Both the position numbers and the translations under genes were made by a program. A stretch of DNA of 34,669 nt from a virus: the UHGV virus genome UHGV-0090561, one strand, 5' to 3'. The notes beneath the pieces are model-generated. The model was not told the DNA's origin. It ran no database searches and saw only the letters and a list, made by a program, of their open reading frames with translations. Positions 3,231 to 29,111 of this stretch are shown here, in pieces. Every line of letters begins with the position of its first letter. The stretch's first letter is position 1.

Positions 3231-3657
3231 ACCGGACTCCTCCTGCGATCCCTTCTGATACTGTCATCAGCATTACGTCATCCTCCGTCATGTCCGCCAC
3301 ATCCGGGGAAGCGGGGATAACTTCATTCCCGTCCGGGCCAAAGCGGACACCTCCGGCAAGCCCTGCCGCTTTCTGCATCAGCACATCATCTTCAGGCTCT
3401 TCGTCAGCCTCGCGCCGGTTCAGCAGACTGAAATCCAGCGGATGCATATCCGGATCGCTGAAAAACAGGCTGAGTACGGTGTACGTCAGCCCGGAAAAGT
3501 GCATATCCAGCAGAACATCATGAAAATAATGGGTACTGTAAAAGCGGTGCCAGTCGGCATACTCCGTGGATGACATCCCGGCAAGCATGGCACGCCAGTC
3601 GGGTCGCCCCATCTCGCGCGCCAGTTTCAGGGCAAAACTCAGCTCACCGTCGAACAC
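3223..3657 (-). CDS. T: T frame of the G-T tail assembly chaperone (expressed by -1 frameshift from G)
   Basis: ORF overlapping the 3' end of G in the -1 frame and directly upstream of H, as in lambda; slippery heptamer present. Confidence 0.85.
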   Translation of the reverse strand: MFDGELSFALKLAREMGRPDWRAMLAGMSSTEYADWHRFYSTHYFHDVLLDMHFSGLTYTVLSLFFSDPDMHPLDFSLLNRREADEEPEDDVLMQKAAGLAGGVRFGPDGNEVIPASPDVADMTEDDVMLMTVSEGIAGGVRYG

Positions 3658-20552: not shown

Positions 20553-24233
<3,681 letters not shown>

Positions 24234-24259
<26 letters not shown>

Positions 24260-24779
24260 TCAGCAACCCCGGTATCAGTTCATCCAGCGCGGCTGCTTTG
24301 TTCATGGCTTTGATGATATCCCGTTTCAGGAAATCAACATGTCGGTTTTCCAGTTCCGGAAAACGCCGCTGCACCGACAGGGGGATCCCGTCGAGAATAC
24401 TGGCAATTTCACCTGCGATCCGCGACAGCACGAAAGTACAGAATGCGGTTTCCACCACTTCAGCGGAGTCTCTGGCATTCTTCAGCTCCTGTGCGTCGGC
24501 CTGCGCACGCGTAAGTCGATGGCGTTCGTACTCAATAGTCCCTGGCTGCAGATCTGTCTCGCTGGCCTGCCGCAGTTCTTCAACCTCCCGGCGCAGCTTT
24601 TCGTTCTCAATTTCAGCATCCCTTTCGGCATACCATTTTATGACGGTGGCAGAGTCATAAAGCACCTCATTACCCTTCCCACCGCCTCGCAGAACGGGCA
24701 TTCCCTGCTCCTGCCAGTTCTGAATGGTACGGATACTCGCACCGAAAATGTCAGCCAGCTGCTTTTTGTTGACTTCCAT
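24234..24779 (-). CDS. Nu1: Terminase small subunit Nu1
   Basis: 181-aa ORF MEVNKKQLADIFGASIRTIQNWQEQGMPVLRGGGKGNEVLYDSA... matches lambda gpNu1; adjacent to cos. Confidence 0.96.
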
Positions 24780-24797
24780 TGTTCATTCCACGGACAA

Positions 24798-25000
24798 AAA
24801 CAGAGAAAGGAAACGACAGAGGCCAAAAAGCCCGTTTTCAGCACCTGTCGTTTCCTTTCTTTTCAGAGGGTGTTTTAAATAAAAACATTAAGTTACGGCG
24901 AAGAAGAACGGAAACGCCTTAAACCGGAAAATTTTCATAAATAGCGAAAACCCGCGCGCCTTCCGCCCCGTAACGTTCTGGATCGCCGGAAAGGACCCGA
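24798..25000. other. Prophage cos region (cosB R-site-like repeats and cosN-like segment)
   Basis: Reverse complement resembles the lambda left-end region (AAACGACAGGTG.../CGTTTCCTTTCT... R sites, IHF-like AT-rich stretch), but the cosN-equivalent differs from lambda GGGCGGCGACCT; duplicated at 8441-8647. Confidence 0.75.
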
Positions 25001-25148
25001 AAATGATAATACATATCAATTACACTTAAAGGGGGGGGGGTTAATTTGTTCACATCAACACTCCGGACCCCAATGGCCTTCTACTCTGGTTTTGCCATAA
25101 AATAGTCCTGATACATATTCATATCAGTTAGTCATATACGGAAAAAAT

Positions 25149-25475
25149 ATGGGCATTACTATTTTCAGCAGTGAAATACAGGATGTTGATAGCGAAGCGA
25201 TGTACAAGAGTTGGCTAGCGACCCATTCCGATGGATTCGTTATTAATCTGCTTAAGTCGGCCAGCGGGAAAGGCAGAAAAAATGATGCCAGATTTACGCG
25301 GATTCATCGAGCCTCATGCAAATCAATCAACCCGTTAATCAGCCCAAAAAATCACGCCGGCTTTACTACTGGCCGATACCAAAAAGTATGTGTTCTTACG
25401 CTTGACGAGGCCGAGTCCACCGCAGGCCAACTAACAGGACTGCCAACCATCCAGAGATGTCATTGGTGTATATAA
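25149..25475 (+). CDS. Hypothetical protein (accessory gene between cos and lysis cassette, opposite strand)
   Basis: 108-aa ORF in an AT-rich stretch, followed by a terminator hairpin; no recognised family. Confidence 0.45.
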   Translation: MGITIFSSEIQDVDSEAMYKSWLATHSDGFVINLLKSASGKGRKNDARFTRIHRASCKSINPLISPKNHAGFTTGRYQKVCVLTLDEAESTAGQLTGLPTIQRCHWCI

Positions 25476-25516
25476 GATACTGCAGTTACGATGGGCCTGC
25501 CCATGATGACGGAATA

Positions 25517-25540
25517 ATAAACCGCCAAAAAGGCGGTTAT
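25517..25540. terminator. Bidirectional intrinsic terminator hairpin
   Basis: AACCGCC-aaaaa-GGCGGTT hairpin flanked by A/T runs, between the convergent 108-aa and 95-aa ORFs; position hand-counted. Confidence 0.6.
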
Positions 25541-25827
25541 TAAATTTGACCTCTTGACTTTTCTATTTCATAAAGACCCACTCCATCTCCTGCATCAAGC
25601 AATGCATAATATTCAGGGTCTTTAATTCGATCTATCTGATTTGAAATTTCAAGTAACTCGTCCTTTAAAGAATCTACTTCAGAGGCTAATCTTTCATTTT
25701 CATCCCTCAGCTCCCTAACTTCTTGCTGTAAAGACAGTAAGCTCTTCCCGGTTGCTGGAAATCGGTTTATCTCATGCCAGATTGCAACTATTAAAGCTAA
25801 TAGCGCAACGGTTAAAGATGTCATCAT
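25540..25827 (-). CDS. Hypothetical membrane-anchored coiled-coil protein
   Basis: 95-aa ORF with N-terminal hydrophobic helix (LTVALLALIVAIW) then a heptad-like charged region. Confidence 0.5.
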   Translation of the reverse strand: MMTSLTVALLALIVAIWHEINRFPATGKSLLSLQQEVRELRDENERLASEVDSLKDELLEISNQIDRIKDPEYYALLDAGDGVGLYEIEKSRGQI

Positions 25828-25934
25828 TGGTCTCCCTTTACTTTACGGGATATAGCACCATCACAGACACTCTACGAGATCCTGTGATGGTGAGATTAGA
25901 ATGGAGGCTGTCTATGGTGATGCACCTGTGGATG

Positions 25935-26474
25935 TTATGATTTTTCGATCATTTTTATTACATTTTTGGCTGGCTTAATTTTCATCGTATCGCCGGTAGC
26001 AAGGTGCACAAGCAACATTAATTTGCGAACGTTGCCGCCCTGTTTCCATATCTTATTTTTCATATCTCTGGCCCAGTCGCCATTAGTATCATTTTGAATA
26101 AAGAAAAATGCATATTCGCCATGCTCAATTTTTTTTGGTAAATCGTCACCAAACCCACCCCCCAGAATCTGAAGTAGTGAGTTTTTTGTACCGAACGTCC
26201 ATGTTACTGAAGTTATAGTTGCGGTTTGAATGCCAACATTTGCAATGTTGATCGTAACTCCAAACGTGCTCACATTTTGGCCTGTGATGCCCCCAAGCGA
26301 TACTGTTCCTCTTAACTTCGGTCGAGGTCGACGGTTAGAAATATATAAAGTCAGGCATACTGCCATAAAGGTTGCAATGCCTGAAAACCACGTTCCTACC
26401 ATTGACCAAAAAGCCCATTCTGCTGTATTTCTAGTGGCAACCAATGATTCGTAAGCTATATAATCTGCGTTCAT
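25935..26474 (-). CDS. Hypothetical membrane protein (accessory gene)
   Basis: About 179 aa from the ATG with GAGGTG Shine-Dalgarno; predicted TM helix (WAFWSMVGTWFSGIATFMAVCLTLYI); AT-rich; upstream extension in the ORF track not supported. Confidence 0.55.
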   Translation of the reverse strand: MNADYIAYESLVATRNTAEWAFWSMVGTWFSGIATFMAVCLTLYISNRRPRPKLRGTVSLGGITGQNVSTFGVTINIANVGIQTATITSVTWTFGTKNSLLQILGGGFGDDLPKKIEHGEYAFFFIQNDTNGDWARDMKNKIWKQGGNVRKLMLLVHLATGDTMKIKPAKNVIKMIEKS

Positions 26475-26792
26475 CTTCACCTCATTTATCGATGAAGTGA
26501 TTGTAACTAAAAGCATTATCGCAAGCACTAAGTGAATGCCAACCACACTCTCGCAGTAGCTGCGCTCATTCCCTTGAGGCCATGTGTCAGGGGTATCTCG
26601 TGAATCCCTCACCACTAACCGGAAGCTGACTGGCGACCAGCCTGGAGTACCGGTGCGCTTCTTCCCGTTACCCCTCACCAGTACGCCCTCAGCTTTTTAC
26701 CTGAGACTGGCTACCCGCAACTTTGGGTATTCGGGGCAGCATCATGACTGCTGCATTGGCGCCACTTGCCACGGTCCGTCTGCTTTACTGCT

Positions 26793-27050
26793 TCATAGCT
26801 TGATCCTCTCTGCTTCAATTTTTCGAATATCAGCTTTATCTCGGTTACAGGTCGCCAGCGCGGAAAGCAGACTGACATTCAAATCCAGACTGCCCCCATA
26901 GGTCAGCGGATCAGGAATAACTGGTTGTGGGGTCTCAGTGGTCAGATTCGCCGGTAGCGGTACCGCTGGAACTGGTACGTAAACTGTCCGCGTACCGGCG
27001 CAGCCATTCAGCTGCACGAGCAGGAACAGGACGGGCAGCGCAATCATCAT
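26793..27050 (-). CDS. Rz1: Putative o-spanin (Rz1-like lipoprotein), overlapping the 3' end of Rz
   Basis: Starts in the +1 frame inside Rz; signal-like MMIALPVLFLLVQLNGC with a lipobox-like cysteine, then a proline-rich segment; extends past the Rz stop. Confidence 0.45.
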   Translation of the reverse strand: MMIALPVLFLLVQLNGCAGTRTVYVPVPAVPLPANLTTETPQPVIPDPLTYGGSLDLNVSLLSALATCNRDKADIRKIEAERIKL

Positions 27051-27327
27051 TCGCAACAGCCGTTTTGATATCTGTCTGGGTTCTCTGTGACTCCAGTGCA
27101 ATCTGCTGTTTTGCATGCTGGCTAGCCTCCAGAACTGTATTGACGATTTGCAGTGATTGCAGGACGTTATTGGTAATGACAGTTGCCGATTTGGCATTTT
27201 GTACAGCCTCATCAGCACGTTTCTTTTCGTGCTGATATTTGCTGTAGTAGTGGTTGGCAGACCAGATGAAAGAACCGATGACAGTAACGAGGAAAGCAGC
27301 GATAACCAGCTTATAGCTCAACTTCAT
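26935..27327 (-). CDS. Rz: i-spanin (Rz-like)
   Basis: 130-aa ORF with N-terminal TM helix and periplasmic coiled coil, immediately downstream of and overlapping the endolysin gene. Confidence 0.7.
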   Translation of the reverse strand: MKLSYKLVIAAFLVTVIGSFIWSANHYYSKYQHEKKRADEAVQNAKSATVITNNVLQSLQIVNTVLEASQHAKQQIALESQRTQTDIKTAVANDDCAARPVPARAAEWLRRYADSLRTSSSGTATGESDH

Positions 27328-27787
27328 TTACCACCCCACCAGCCTCTTTAAATCGGGAAATCAGGTCACCGATTTTATGTTCATACTGACCGTAACCTGC
27401 TCCGGGTAACGAAGCCCAGATATTGCTGCAACAGTCGATTGCCTGACGGATGTCACCGCGATCAATCATTAGTAAAGCACCACGCTCCTTAATCTGCTGC
27501 AATGCAACAGCATCCTGGCTTTTAGGAGAGAAGTCTGTCAGCCCTAACTGCTTGCGGTAAGCATCCCACCAGCGTGAAAGAAGTTGATAACGGCCTGCGG
27601 CTGTTGATTTGAGTTTCGGGTTTAGCGTGACAAGTTTTCGAGGGTGATCGGAGTAATCAGTGAAGAGTTCGCCACCGACAATAACGTCATAACCGCGGTT
27701 ACGTGTCGGTTGTCGCCCGTTATCCGTTCCTTCTGACCACGCCAACATATCGAGGAAAGCTTTACGCTGAGGATTAAGATTTTGCAT
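27311..27787 (-). CDS. R: Endolysin (lambda R-type lytic transglycosylase)
   Basis: 158-aa ORF ...NPQRKAFLDMLAWSEGTDNGRQPTRNRGYDVIVGGELFTDYSDHPRKLV... closely matches recalled lambda R. Confidence 0.93.
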   Translation of the reverse strand: MQNLNPQRKAFLDMLAWSEGTDNGRQPTRNRGYDVIVGGELFTDYSDHPRKLVTLNPKLKSTAAGRYQLLSRWWDAYRKQLGLTDFSPKSQDAVALQQIKERGALLMIDRGDIRQAIDCCSNIWASLPGAGYGQYEHKIGDLISRFKEAGGVVNEVEL

Positions 27788-28091
27788 TTTTCACCCCTGT
27801 CAGTCGTTCCCAGAAGTACGTCAGTGCAACCGAGCCCATCGCACCACTAATCCCCGCTGTCGCGAGAATCATGTAAATACTGAATCCACTTTCGATACTG
27901 ATCAGGCCACCAATAACACCGGTGAATCCCGATACCACTATCTGAGCCAGAGCATTTATCCAGCTCCACGTTGCTTTACTTTGCTTCACATCTATCAGAT
28001 AGCGGACCAGACCGCCCCAACCTGCGATGATCAGCAAAACGAGCCAGAACGCTCCGGCAAGGCTCTCTTTTTCGTGCATATGAATAGCCAA
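27774..28091 (-). CDS. S: Holin (three predicted TM helices; not lambda S-like in sequence)
   Basis: 105-aa ORF directly upstream of and overlapping R; three hydrophobic segments; possible dual-start MAIHM. Confidence 0.75.
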   Translation of the reverse strand: MAIHMHEKESLAGAFWLVLLIIAGWGGLVRYLIDVKQSKATWSWINALAQIVVSGFTGVIGGLISIESGFSIYMILATAGISGAMGSVALTYFWERLTGVKNAKS

Positions 28092-28307: not shown

Positions 28308-29111
28308 ATGACAGAAAAAGATAACATTGGTAAGTTAATTTGGCATATTGCTTGCGATGAATCTGGCATTGATGGGCAACGTTTCTACGGCTTTGGCAGT
28401 CTGTGGATGAAGTACCAACGCCGTGGGGATTTCTGTCAACTAATCAGAGAACTACGCAGCAAACATGGTTTTTTTGAAGAAATAAAATGGCAAAAAGCCC
28501 ATTCAAAAAGATACTCTGAATTTTATCTTGAGCTGATCGACTTATTCTTTAGAGTTCCTTGGCTAGCTTTTCATTGTATCGTGGTTGAAAAATCAATAGT
28601 AAACAAGGCATTTCATAATGGGGATTATGACCTGGCAAGGAGAAAGCACTTCACAAATCTCATTACCACAAAAATTAGCTCTGTAATTTCTGCACACCCT
28701 GAAAGAGACAGTTACTTCAGGATTGAAGTTGATCCTATCGCATCTCGTTATAAAAAGGCCGATGAAGAACTAAATGTTATTGCCAATAACATATTGAATA
28801 GAAAATTTGGTCGTAAAGGGATAATCAGCAGTGTAGTGACAAAAGACTCTAAAGCATCTGAAAACATTCAGCTAGCCGATTTTTTCTTAGGTGCGGTTAT
28901 GTGCGCATATCAAGGAAAAGCTTCATCTGAAGCCAAAATAAGAGTATCAAACTATGTTGCTTCATATTTAGGCTGGGATCATTTGCAATATGATACATGG
29001 CACACTGAGAGAAAATTTAATATCTGGTATTTTTATGATAAAACTCGAGGGCCACGAGATATAGAAACTCAAAATGTTAGCTTAAAGTATCCACTTCCCC
29101 AAAAGAAATAG
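28308..29111 (+). CDS. DUF3800-like protein (accessory gene between Q and S, antisense to late transcription)
   Basis: 267-aa ORF in a markedly AT-rich island; N-terminal HIACDESG and C-terminal IQLADFFLGAV resemble the DUF3800 motifs as I recall them (not HMM-verified). Confidence 0.55.
   Translation: MTEKDNIGKLIWHIACDESGIDGQRFYGFGSLWMKYQRRGDFCQLIRELRSKHGFFEEIKWQKAHSKRYSEFYLELIDLFFRVPWLAFHCIVVEKSIVNKAFHNGDYDLARRKHFTNLITTKISSVISAHPERDSYFRIEVDPIASRYKKADEELNVIANNILNRKFGRKGIISSVVTKDSKASENIQLADFFLGAVMCAYQGKASSEAKIRVSNYVASYLGWDHLQYDTWHTERKFNIWYFYDKTRGPRDIETQNVSLKYPLPQKK

What the first reader, a model, noticed from the sequence alone, without database searches (positions are those of the whole stretch)
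25149..26678. Accessory gene cluster between Rz1 and cos: two membrane proteins and a convergent 108-aa ORF
The interval where lambda carries bor-type lysogenic-conversion genes contains an AT-rich ~179-aa single-pass membrane protein with a strong Shine-Dalgarno, a 95-aa TM plus coiled-coil protein, and a plus-strand 108-aa ORF with its own terminator. About 300 bp of GC-richer non-coding sequence (around 26480-26790) lies upstream. These are candidate superinfection-exclusion or abortive-infection factors; I recognise no families.
Basis: inference. Interest (0 to 1): 0.45.

Follow-up and report, generated by a model that had tools for sequence, protein, structure and literature searches.

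The report
Prophage cargo genes between lysis and cos
The gap between the lysis genes and the DNA-packaging site of this lambda-like prophage holds three real, conserved but uncharacterised accessory genes, two of them carried as small cassettes behind a hairpin element that I could not find described; what they do remains untested.

Summary
The Rz1-cos interval holds a 108-aa plus-strand gene (A, 25149-25475) and two minus-strand genes: B (95 aa, 25540-25827) and C (179 aa, 25935-26474). All three have conserved homologues.

They are three separate cargo modules, not one system:
- A stands without B or C in 47 of 51 viral loci.
- B stands without C in 11 of 15.
- C relatives lack A and B in all but the near-identical loci and one Raoultella locus, which has A.

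What each looks like:
- C belongs to a large family with no Pfam match (977 cluster representatives). It has a single membrane helix and a predicted cytoplasmic Ig-like domain. Its N-terminal anchor also occurs on proteins with unrelated C-termini.
- B has a membrane helix, a coiled coil and an acidic tail. It resembles FtsB/DivIC only below threshold.
- A is a small basic protein with invariant His/Cys residues and no structural relative. It always points against the late genes, next to the terminase gene.

None matches Pfam, NCBIfam, PADLOC or phi80 Tai/Ati.

Cargo genes of this slot are preceded by a conserved ~44-nt hairpin with compensatory changes. It occurs in 410 of 5426 E. coli genomes and is absent from Rfam. 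Both window copies are diverged.

An exclusion or defence role is plausible from location only.

The parts
24957..24968 (.). cosN, the 12-nt cohesive-end site and left boundary landmark. It reads GGGCGGAAGGCG on the minus strand.
   Evidence: Read against lambda cos as I recall it. The 24780-25030 stretch is 91-94% identical to the cos regions of many lambdoid phages.
25092..25119 (+). Promoter-like site for gene A (TTGCCA-16-CATATT). It lies next to a leftover of a pac-type terS start codon (reverse complement of ATGGCAAAACC).
   Evidence: Consensus scan. The stretch upstream of A is conserved in 25 loci, with an extended -10 (TGTTATAAT or TGTTATATA) and the ribosome-binding sequence GGAGA. 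The window copy is slightly degenerate.
25149..25475 (+). Gene A: 108 aa, basic (pI 9.05), no membrane segment, invariant H53, C57, C81, C104 and C107. It points against the late genes.
25485..25510 (.). Conserved inverted repeat (GTTACGATGGGCCTGCCCATGATGAC) between the stop codon of A and the terminator.
   Evidence: Folded. The same motif follows A, and also follows B, in other loci. Function unknown.
25520..25538 (.). Bidirectional intrinsic terminator shared by A and by the C-B unit.
   Evidence: The AACCGCC..GGCGGTT terminator is conserved after B in nearly all B loci.
25540..25827 (-). Gene B: 95 aa. N-terminal membrane helix, coiled coil (about residues 30-68), conserved acidic C-terminus DPEYYALLDAGDG.GLYE, pI 4.5.
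   Evidence: Pfam DivIC scores 23.5 bits, below the 28.9-bit cut-off, yet it is the top family for 20 of 21 members.
25848..25894 (-). Hairpin between C and B (arms 25856-25866 and 25882-25892). I read it as a diverged copy of the cassette hairpin element.
   Evidence: Perfect 11-nt inverted repeat. It folds at -26.9 kcal/mol, z = -3.8. The match to covariance model R1 is weak: 11.2 bits, E = 2.4.
25935..26474 (-). Gene C: 179 aa. Short N-terminal tail, one membrane helix, then an Ig-like beta-sandwich predicted to face the cytoplasm. pI 9.75.
26477..26500 (-). 9-bp hairpin in the C leader that pairs with the ribosome-binding sequence (UCACUUCAU with AUGAGGUGA).
   Evidence: Fold. The CACCTCA..TGAGGTG pairing recurs upstream of C-family and sister genes in other loci.
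26506..26543 (-). Decayed copy of the cassette hairpin element. It lacks 12 nt of the 5' arm. It contains a promoter-like site, TTGGCA-16-GATAAT preceded by TG (26542-26515).
   Evidence: 12.1 bits, E = 1.4. About 90% identical to the right half of the element consensus. Homology with the flank of E. coli C3728 ends exactly at its 5' edge.
26544..26792 (.). Conserved GC-richer spacer after Rz1. It is flank, not part of the cassette.
   Evidence: No significant folding and no Rfam match.

Best explanation
The Rz1-cos interval of this lambda-like prophage is a cargo slot. It has been filled piecemeal by three independent accessory genes.

Shown here:
1. Each gene belongs to its own conserved family found in Enterobacterales prophages.
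2. The families mostly occur without one another.
3. The joints between modules lie at regulatory elements: the 5' edge of a hairpin element at about 26543, the bidirectional terminator at about 25526, and a G-run next to cos at about 25030.
4. C and B are co-oriented with the late operon. Each is headed by a copy of a ~44-nt hairpin element. Elsewhere this element precedes at least 12 unrelated cargo gene families, about 38 nt before the start codon.
5. A is a reverse-oriented gene that sits directly beside the small-terminase gene in many phage types and has a conserved upstream region.

Inferred:
- C and B form one transcription unit. It would run from the TTGGCA-16-TGcGATAAT promoter, which the 12-nt deletion in the element created, to the terminator after B. 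It would be expressed at a low level in the lysogen and, through Q-dependent read-through, late in lytic growth. A hairpin that pairs with the ribosome-binding sequence would damp C translation.
- A would be transcribed from its own extended -10 promoter in the lysogen. Converging late transcription would oppose it after induction, as shown for taiEcA of phi80.

Most likely functions (inference only):
- C and B are inner-membrane proteins that act at the membrane against incoming or competing phages, in the manner of superinfection exclusion. C is anchored with its N-terminus outside and its Ig-like domain in the cytoplasm.
- A is a cytoplasmic zinc-binding protein expressed from the prophage.
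For: Reality and independence of the families:
- Families.
- A occurs without B or C in 47 of 51 viral loci, and B without C in 11 of 15. C relatives occur without A or B in all but the near-identical loci.

Position:
- C relatives are always co-oriented with late genes. They lie either after the lysis cassette and before the terminase, or between the tail tube gene and the tail chaperone/tape-measure genes.
- A is always reversed and abuts terS or an HNH gene. Its other neighbour varies: DUF2513, CHAP, trypsin-like peptidase, Abi_alpha, DUF6236 or an insertion sequence.

Moron traits:
- Rarity (5 of 5426 genomes).
- Low GC.
- Flanks shared with phages that carry other cargo.
- Promoter-like and terminator-like sites.

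Topology of C: 63 of 65 family members have more Lys/Arg after the membrane helix than before it (means 3.6 and 0.6).

Modular anchor: residues 1-45 of C match proteins whose C-termini are unrelated and helical.

Hairpin element:
- 93% of cells paired, 8 of 17 pairs with changes on both sides, and none of 500 shuffles reaching the observed values.
- The consensus folds at -25.3 kcal/mol, z = -6.4.
- About 55 sites in 0.9 Mb of loci, all on the late-gene strand.
- 28 of 34 distinct copies are followed by a ribosome-binding site and ORF at a median of 38 nt. The downstream proteins fall into 12 clusters.

Precedent for the slot: phi80 taiEcA is reversed and constitutive, atiEcA is late, and both sit in the same Rz-to-cos interval (PMC11364771, sections read).
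Against: - No expression or phenotype data exist.
- The promoter scan found no more sites than shuffled sequence gives (3 found, 3.7 expected).
- In most other loci C follows the upstream gene by fewer than 110 nt and lies inside late operons. It may therefore be a late (lytic-cycle) protein rather than a lysogen-expressed one.
- A cytoplasmic Ig-like domain is not what is known for classical exclusion proteins.
- No match to any PADLOC model.
- Both window copies of the hairpin element are weak matches to the model (E = 1.4 and 2.4).
Confidence: 0.55

Rival explanations
1. C and/or B are late-expressed helpers of the phage's own lytic cycle. They might be lysis-timing or spanin/holin modulators, or might block re-infection of the lysing cell. 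In this reading they are not lysogen-expressed morons.
For: - Both are co-oriented with, and directly follow, the S-R-Rz/Rz1 cassette.
- C relatives usually begin within about 110 nt of the upstream spanin or tail tube gene.
- The upstream neighbours of C are holins, lysozymes and Rz-type proteins.
- B has the membrane-helix plus coiled-coil build of an Rz-type inner-membrane spanin, with weak PHROG spanin matches (E = 0.03-0.09).
Against: - The window already has a complete holin, endolysin and Rz/Rz1 set.
- C and B are absent from nearly all related prophages (5 of 5426 genomes).
- C also sits in the tail module of other phages.
- The slot holds unrelated cargo elsewhere.
- The spanin matches are at noise level.
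Confidence: 0.2
2. B is an FtsB/DivIC mimic. It would insert into the inner membrane and, through its leucine-zipper coiled coil, pair with FtsL or FtsB to block cell division. This would resemble SPO1 gp56 in Bacillus (my recollection; not checked here).
For: - Pfam DivIC is the top family for 20 of 21 B-family members (best E = 1.9e-6). The match covers the membrane helix and the zipper.
- Pseudomonas FtsB is among the PDB sequence matches, aligned over residues 30-90 (E = 0.007).
Against: - All scores lie below the Pfam cut-off (23.5 against 28.9 bits).
- The same region matches many unrelated coiled coils equally well.
- The profile comparison with E. coli FtsB gives only 31% probability.
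- The conserved C-terminus of B has no counterpart shown in FtsB.
Confidence: 0.1
3. A with C/B forms a defence plus counter-defence pair arranged as a non-contiguous operon, like taiEcA and atiEcA of phi80. The reversed gene A would be made in the lysogen as the effector. The late-strand genes would neutralise it during the prophage's own lytic growth.
For: - The gene order and orientation match phi80, in the same interval (PMC11364771, read).
- A second, distant locus (Raoultella, L005) has a C relative converging on an A relative.
Against: - A occurs without B or C in 47 of 51 viral loci, with a variable neighbour.
- There is no homology to Tai or Ati.
- Adjacency of A and C follows by default from their two fixed positions, A beside terS and C after the lysis genes, whenever no other cargo lies between.
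Confidence: 0.1

Closest known systems
Morons of lambdoid phages as defined by Hendrix and co-workers (my recollection of Juhala et al. 2000). HK97 gp15 is an example annotated 'moron product'.
   Same: - Extra genes inserted between genes that are adjacent in related phages.
- Deviating base composition.
- Flanked by promoter-like and terminator sites.
- Co-oriented with late genes (C, B) or reversed (A).
- HK97 gp15 is an N-terminal membrane helix followed by a short helical tail, the same build as B.
   Different: - No sequence relation: gp15 scores 5.2 bits or less against the B and C profiles.
- gp15 is 62 aa and lies in the tail module.
- Its exclusion activity is known from experiments (my recollection of Cumby et al. 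2012). Nothing is known for A, B or C.
Tai/Ati of phage phi80 (orf63/orf64; PMC11364771)
   Same: - The same interval, between Rz/Rz1 and cos and upstream of the packaging genes.
- A reversed gene embedded in the Q-dependent late operon, next to late-strand small genes.
- phi80 also carries a full copy of the hairpin element, just after rha.
   Different: - No homology between A, B or C and Tai, Ati, orf65, orf66 or Rha.
- Tai is a 204-aa soluble protein. A is 108 aa with a Cys/His cluster.
FtsB/DivIC family (Pfam PF04977)
   Same: B has an N-terminal membrane helix followed by a leucine-zipper coiled coil, and is of similar size. DivIC is the best Pfam family for 20 of 21 B members.
   Different: - Below the curated cut-off.
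- Prophage cargo, not a divisome gene.
- The conserved acidic C-terminus is specific to the B family.
lambda bor
   Same: It is a reversed, lysogen-expressed gene, like A.
   Different: Bor is a lipoprotein. None of A, B or C has a signal peptide with a lipobox cysteine, as read from the translations.

Membership tests
Moron (Hendrix definition) | Inserted between genes that are adjacent in related phages | tested here: met
   The flanks (cos side up to about 25030, and the spacer after Rz1 from about 26543) are conserved in phages and prophages that lack the cluster or carry other cargo.
Moron (Hendrix definition) | Own promoter upstream | tested here: inconclusive
   Promoter-like sites lie at 26542-26515 (10 of 12 matches, with TG) and at 25092-25119. 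The count is no higher than in shuffled sequence. The upstream region of A is conserved across 25 loci. No transcript data.
Moron (Hendrix definition) | Own terminator downstream | tested here: met
   A bidirectional terminator lies at 25520-25538. It is conserved after B in other loci. This rests on prediction only.
Moron (Hendrix definition) | Base composition differs from the neighbouring genes | tested here: met
   GC is 37.5-46.2% in A, B and C. It is 48-54% in the lysis and terminase genes.
FtsB/DivIC (PF04977), for B | Score at or above the Pfam gathering cut-off | tested here: not met
   23.5 bits against a cut-off of 28.9. 20 of 21 members match at E <= 1e-3, best 1.9e-6.
FtsB/DivIC (PF04977), for B | N-terminal membrane helix followed by a leucine-zipper coiled coil | tested here: met
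   The match covers residues 7-57 of B and positions 3-54 of the profile. See also the alignment.
FtsB/DivIC (PF04977), for B | C-terminal segment that binds FtsQ | not testable with these tools
   The only evidence is a weak alignment to Pseudomonas FtsB over residues 30-90 (E = 0.007) among many coiled-coil matches, and 31% probability by hhalign against E. coli FtsB.
Rz-type inner-membrane spanin, for B | Sequence match to spanin families and a partner outer-membrane lipoprotein gene | tested here: not met
   PHROG spanin matches have E = 0.03-0.09 only. The window has its own Rz (26935-27327) and an Rz1-type ORF. I saw no lipoprotein ORF embedded in or next to B.
Tai/Ati (phi80) | Homology to TaiEcA or AtiEcA | tested here: not met
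   Profiles of A, B and C scored against phi80 orf62-66 give at most 2.9 bits.
Tai/Ati (phi80) | Reversed gene inside the Q-dependent late operon, upstream of the packaging genes | tested here: met
   A is on the plus strand, and S, R, Rz, Nu1 and gpA are on the minus strand. The phi80 layout is shown.
Known anti-phage defence systems (PADLOC-DB 2.0) | Match to any model | tested here: not met
   No match for A or C. B has only a coiled-coil-type match to LmuB at E = 0.005. Sister proteins that share the C anchor also have none.
Bor-type lipoprotein | Signal peptide with a lipobox cysteine | tested here: not met
   Read from the translations. A has no hydrophobic N-terminus, B has no cysteine, and the membrane helix of C is not followed by a lipobox.
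HK97 gp15 / YebO-type exclusion proteins | Sequence similarity of the N-terminal membrane segment | tested here: not met
   gp15 scores 0.4, 5.2 and -0.6 bits against the C, B and wider C profiles. Similarity to YebO itself was not tested.

The most novel reading that the evidence does not exclude
Two linked claims.
1. C-type proteins form a polymorphic family of phage inner-membrane proteins. They share a conserved N-terminal tail and membrane helix, and carry interchangeable cytoplasmic domains: an Ig-like sandwich in some, helical domains in others.
2. Together with B and at least ten other gene families, they travel as cassettes headed by a dedicated ~44-nt structured element.

The element would be a previously undescribed regulatory unit, either a terminator-promoter module or an RNA processing site. 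Its conserved sequence would also serve as the recombination joint that shuffles cargo between late-operon slots of Enterobacterales temperate phages. The proteins would be a new class of exclusion or defence factors.
Probability: 0.2. Interest if true: 0.75.

Novelty: new variant of a known kind. Interest (0 to 1): 0.5.

Why it matters
Prophage cargo slots have repeatedly yielded new anti-phage systems, and this very interval gave Tai/Ati in phi80.

- C represents a family of about a thousand sequence clusters. It has no Pfam entry and no known function, and it sits in two classic cargo slots.
- A is a confidently predicted small protein with no structural relative.
- The hairpin element could work as a sequence tag for finding cargo genes in temperate phages of Enterobacterales. 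It may also explain how they are insulated, expressed and exchanged.

All of this can be tested with simple cloning and plaque assays.

Tried and rejected
- **Family scans.** Pfam, NCBIfam, PHROGs and PADLOC scans of A, B and C gave nothing above threshold. Scanning 65 diverse C-family members and 8 sister proteins also gave nothing.
- **Unavailable or failed tools.** The AlphaFold-database fold library was unavailable. A genome-collection scan with the wide C alignment failed because it has no conserved stretch long enough.
- **PDB sequence searches.** They gave coiled-coil noise for B and nothing for A.
- **Known systems tested by homology.** phi80 Tai/Ati/Rha/orf65/orf66 and HK97 gp15 are not related.
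- **The GC-richer spacer as an RNA gene.** Rejected: no Rfam match and no unusual folding.
- **The 247-aa reading of C.** Rejected: homologues start at the internal ATG, and the promoter-like element lies inside the extension.
- **Obligate A-C or B-C pairing.** Rejected on co-occurrence counts.
- **Literature.** Searches by accession number and by the element's sequence found no paper. HepS of Gifsy-1 (PMC13043305) is an unrelated HEPN protein.
Full report
**Setting.** The window is a lambda-like prophage read on the minus strand.
- Large terminase gpA is 22334-24259 and Nu1 is 24234-24779.
- The holin is 27774-28091, the lambda-R-type lysozyme 27311-27787, and Rz 26935-27327.
- The Rz1-type ORF ends at 26793.
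- I place cosN at about 24957-24968 by reading against lambda cos as I remember it. The 24780-25030 stretch is 91-94% identical to the cos regions of many lambdoid phages.

Three ORFs are present: A at 25149-25475 (+, 108 aa), B at 25540-25827 (-, 95 aa) and C at 25935-26474 (-, 179 aa).
- The C reading frame stays open up to a GTG at 26678. All homologues nevertheless begin at the ATG, which is preceded by GAGGTGA, and they are 177-190 aa long. PGAP calls the 179-aa form.
- A bidirectional terminator at 25520-25538 serves both A and B.
- The genes are AT-rich: 37.5-46.2% GC, against 53-54% in the terminase genes.
- The 318-bp spacer upstream of C has 53.5% GC. It is not part of the cassette. 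It is a flank after Rz1, shared at 87-93% identity with other E. coli prophages that carry different cargo, for example an S1 peptidase in strain C3728. It does not fold unusually (z = -1.2) and matches no Rfam family.

**The genes are real but unnamed.**
- Each has a conserved family in Enterobacterales: 10 clusters for C, 18 for A and 23 for B. The alignments have many invariant columns.
- None reaches threshold in Pfam, NCBIfam, PHROGs or PADLOC.
- The whole cluster is rare. It occurs in 5 of 5426 complete E. coli genomes, and megablast finds it in no cultured phage.

**Three modules, not one system.** I fetched 47 viral loci with relatives of C, 15 with B and 51 with A, and scored all their ORFs with the three profiles.
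- A stands without B or C in 47 of 51 loci.
- B stands without C in 11 of 15.
- C relatives lack A and B in all but the near-identical loci and one Raoultella locus, which has A.
- One locus (L066) has B followed by a distant relative of the C anchor.
- Three further E. coli genomes share only the A segment, 25030-25526.

Module joints thus lie at about 25030 (a G-run), at about 25526 (the terminator) and at about 26543.

**Gene C.** A profile search of 1.84 billion cluster representatives found 977 relatives at E <= 0.001 and 233 at E <= 1e-10. Nearly all are 165-230 aa. Of 65 diverse members, none matches a Pfam family, and 58 match PHROG 16957, which has no known function.
- In 63 of 65 members there are more Lys/Arg residues after the membrane helix than before it (means 3.6 and 0.6). 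By the positive-inside rule the short N-tail faces the periplasm and the sandwich faces the cytoplasm.
- The first ~45 residues are the best conserved part: 69% against 53% mean identity. They recur on proteins whose C-termini are unrelated and helical. These sister proteins also match no Pfam or PADLOC model.
- C relatives are always co-oriented with late genes. They sit in one of two slots. One is after the holin/lysozyme/spanin genes and before the terminase. The other is between the tail tube gene and the tail chaperone/tape-measure genes.

**Gene B.** B has a membrane helix (residues 2-17), a coiled coil (about 30-68) and a conserved acidic end, DPEYYALLDAGDG.GLYE. Its pI is 4.5.
- Pfam DivIC is the best family for 20 of 21 members, but below the cut-off (23.5 against 28.9 bits).
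- Pseudomonas FtsB appears among many coiled-coil matches in the PDB (E = 0.007).
- Membership is therefore not shown.
- HK97 gp15, a known moron product, has the same helix-plus-helix build but no sequence relation.

**Gene A.** A is basic (pI 9.05) and has no membrane segment.
- Residues H53, C57, C81, C104 and C107 are invariant, as is the motif RFTRIHRAxCKxINP. A metal site is a reasonable inference.
- In 47 loci A is always reversed relative to the late genes and abuts the small-terminase or HNH gene. Its other neighbour varies: DUF2513, CHAP, trypsin-like peptidase, Abi_alpha, DUF6236 or an insertion sequence.
- Its upstream region is conserved, with an extended -10 (TGTTATAAT or TGTTATATA) and GGAGA. 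The window copy is slightly degenerate. It still carries the first codons of a pac-type terS on the other strand, which marks where the module came from.

**A hairpin element heads the cassettes.** Comparing the sequences upstream of B and C across loci revealed a ~44-nt element. Its core reads GGCATTACAGCAGGCATTCACTGAGTGCCTGTGATAATGC.
- The consensus folds into a 17-pair hairpin at -25.3 kcal/mol (z = -6.4).
- On 29 distinct copies, 93% of cells pair. Eight of 17 pairs show changes on both sides, and none of 500 shuffles reaches the observed values.
- Several positions alternate between G-C and G-U. This fits pairing on the late-gene sense strand.
- A covariance model finds about 55 sites in 0.9 Mb of fetched loci, always best on the late-gene strand. 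Some loci have 2-4 copies.
- Of 34 distinct strongly folding copies, 28 are followed by a ribosome-binding site and an ORF at a median of 38 nt. The downstream proteins fall into 12 unrelated clusters. The element often starts at the stop codon of the upstream gene.
- It occurs in 47 phage records, including phi80, mEp390, phiP27, ST64B, Fels-1 and ZF40, and in 410 of 5426 E. coli genomes.
- Rfam has no match, and no paper contains the sequence.
- The 3' arm carries an extended -10 (TGTGATAAT), and about half the copies are followed by a T-run. A combined terminator-promoter module is therefore one reading. An RNA processing or protein-binding hairpin is another. The invariant loop positions (ATTC...GAGTG) suggest sequence-specific recognition.

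**The element in the window.**
- The copy before C (26506-26543) matches the right half of the consensus at about 90%. It lacks 12 nt, consistent with slippage between the two GCATT repeats, so it no longer folds (-8.6 kcal/mol). The deletion leaves TTGGCA-16-GATAAT with an upstream TG. Homology with the C3728 flank ends exactly at the 5' edge of this copy.
- The hairpin between C and B (25848-25894, -26.9 kcal/mol) looks like a second, diverged copy.
- Both are weak matches to the model (E = 1.4 and 2.4). I rest the first on direct sequence comparison and treat the second as probable only.
- The C leader also has a 9-bp hairpin that pairs with the ribosome-binding sequence. The same pairing is conserved in other C-type loci.

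**Comparison with what is known.** phi80 carries, in the same interval, the experimentally shown defence gene taiEcA (reversed, constitutive) and its late-expressed antidote atiEcA (PMC11364771). That paper states that Tai homologues lie mostly upstream of the packaging module. A, B and C are not homologous to any phi80 protein of that interval. The kind of locus is therefore known, but the genes are not.

**Verdict.** The interpretation as accessory cargo is supported. The proposed exclusion or abortive-infection role is plausible by location and architecture but untested, and a lytic-cycle role for B and C is not excluded. The most interesting results are:
- the size and modular anchor of the C family;
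- the orphan fold of A;
- the hairpin element that heads the cargo cassettes.

Noticed in passing
Window 26506-26543 (-) and 25848-25894 (-). Full copies at e.g. L010 4920-4969, L123 (phi80) 3296-3345 and L078 5829-5878 (-).: A conserved ~44-nt hairpin element (core GGCATTACAGCAGGCATTCACTGAGTGCCTGTGATAATGC) precedes cargo genes of at least 12 unrelated families in late-operon slots of Enterobacterales temperate phages. It shows compensatory base changes. It occurs in 410 of 5426 E. coli genomes and 47 phage records. It has no Rfam match and I found no paper containing it.
   Followed up: yes
L041-L053, L066 2782-3261, and possibly L122 3024-3581 (-): Proteins in the same slot share the first ~45 residues of C (N-tail plus membrane helix) but have unrelated helical C-terminal domains. 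The anchor therefore looks like a module that is reused. The 184-aa L122 protein has a similar build but no significant profile match.
   Followed up: partly
Window 28308-29111 (+): A reversed, AT-rich (36.8% GC) 267-aa DUF3800 gene lies between Q and the holin. It matches the PADLOC candidate defence model PDC-M04A (E = 8e-35) and PHROG 3732. It is a second cargo slot in the same prophage.
   Followed up: partly
Window 25485-25510. Also downstream of A or B in L058, L064, L067, L073, L084, L104, L109 and L116.: A second conserved inverted repeat (about CCATTACGATGGGCCTGCCCATGGTGATGG) sits next to the shared terminator. It is present after B even in loci that lack A. Function unknown.
   Followed up: partly
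Window 24957-24968: The 12-nt cohesive-end sequence reads GGGCGGAAGGCG.
   Followed up: no
Window about 25020-25033: A run of about eleven G residues lies at the point where homology to other lambdoid cos regions ends. This is the left joint of the cargo insertion.
   Followed up: no
Window 25473-25475, compared with L001 4117-4485: In E. coli SCU-301 the stop codon of A is lost and the protein is 122 aa. Homologues end at the C-x-C motif, so the 108-aa form is the usual one. In three other genomes that hold the A segment (E28, E300082, C4), PGAP annotates no gene there.
   Followed up: partly
Window about 25095-25110 (+): The sequence GGTTTTGCCAT upstream of A is the reverse complement of the start of a pac-type small-terminase gene (ATGGCAAAACC, encoding MAKP). 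It is a leftover carried along with the A module into a cos-type phage.
   Followed up: partly
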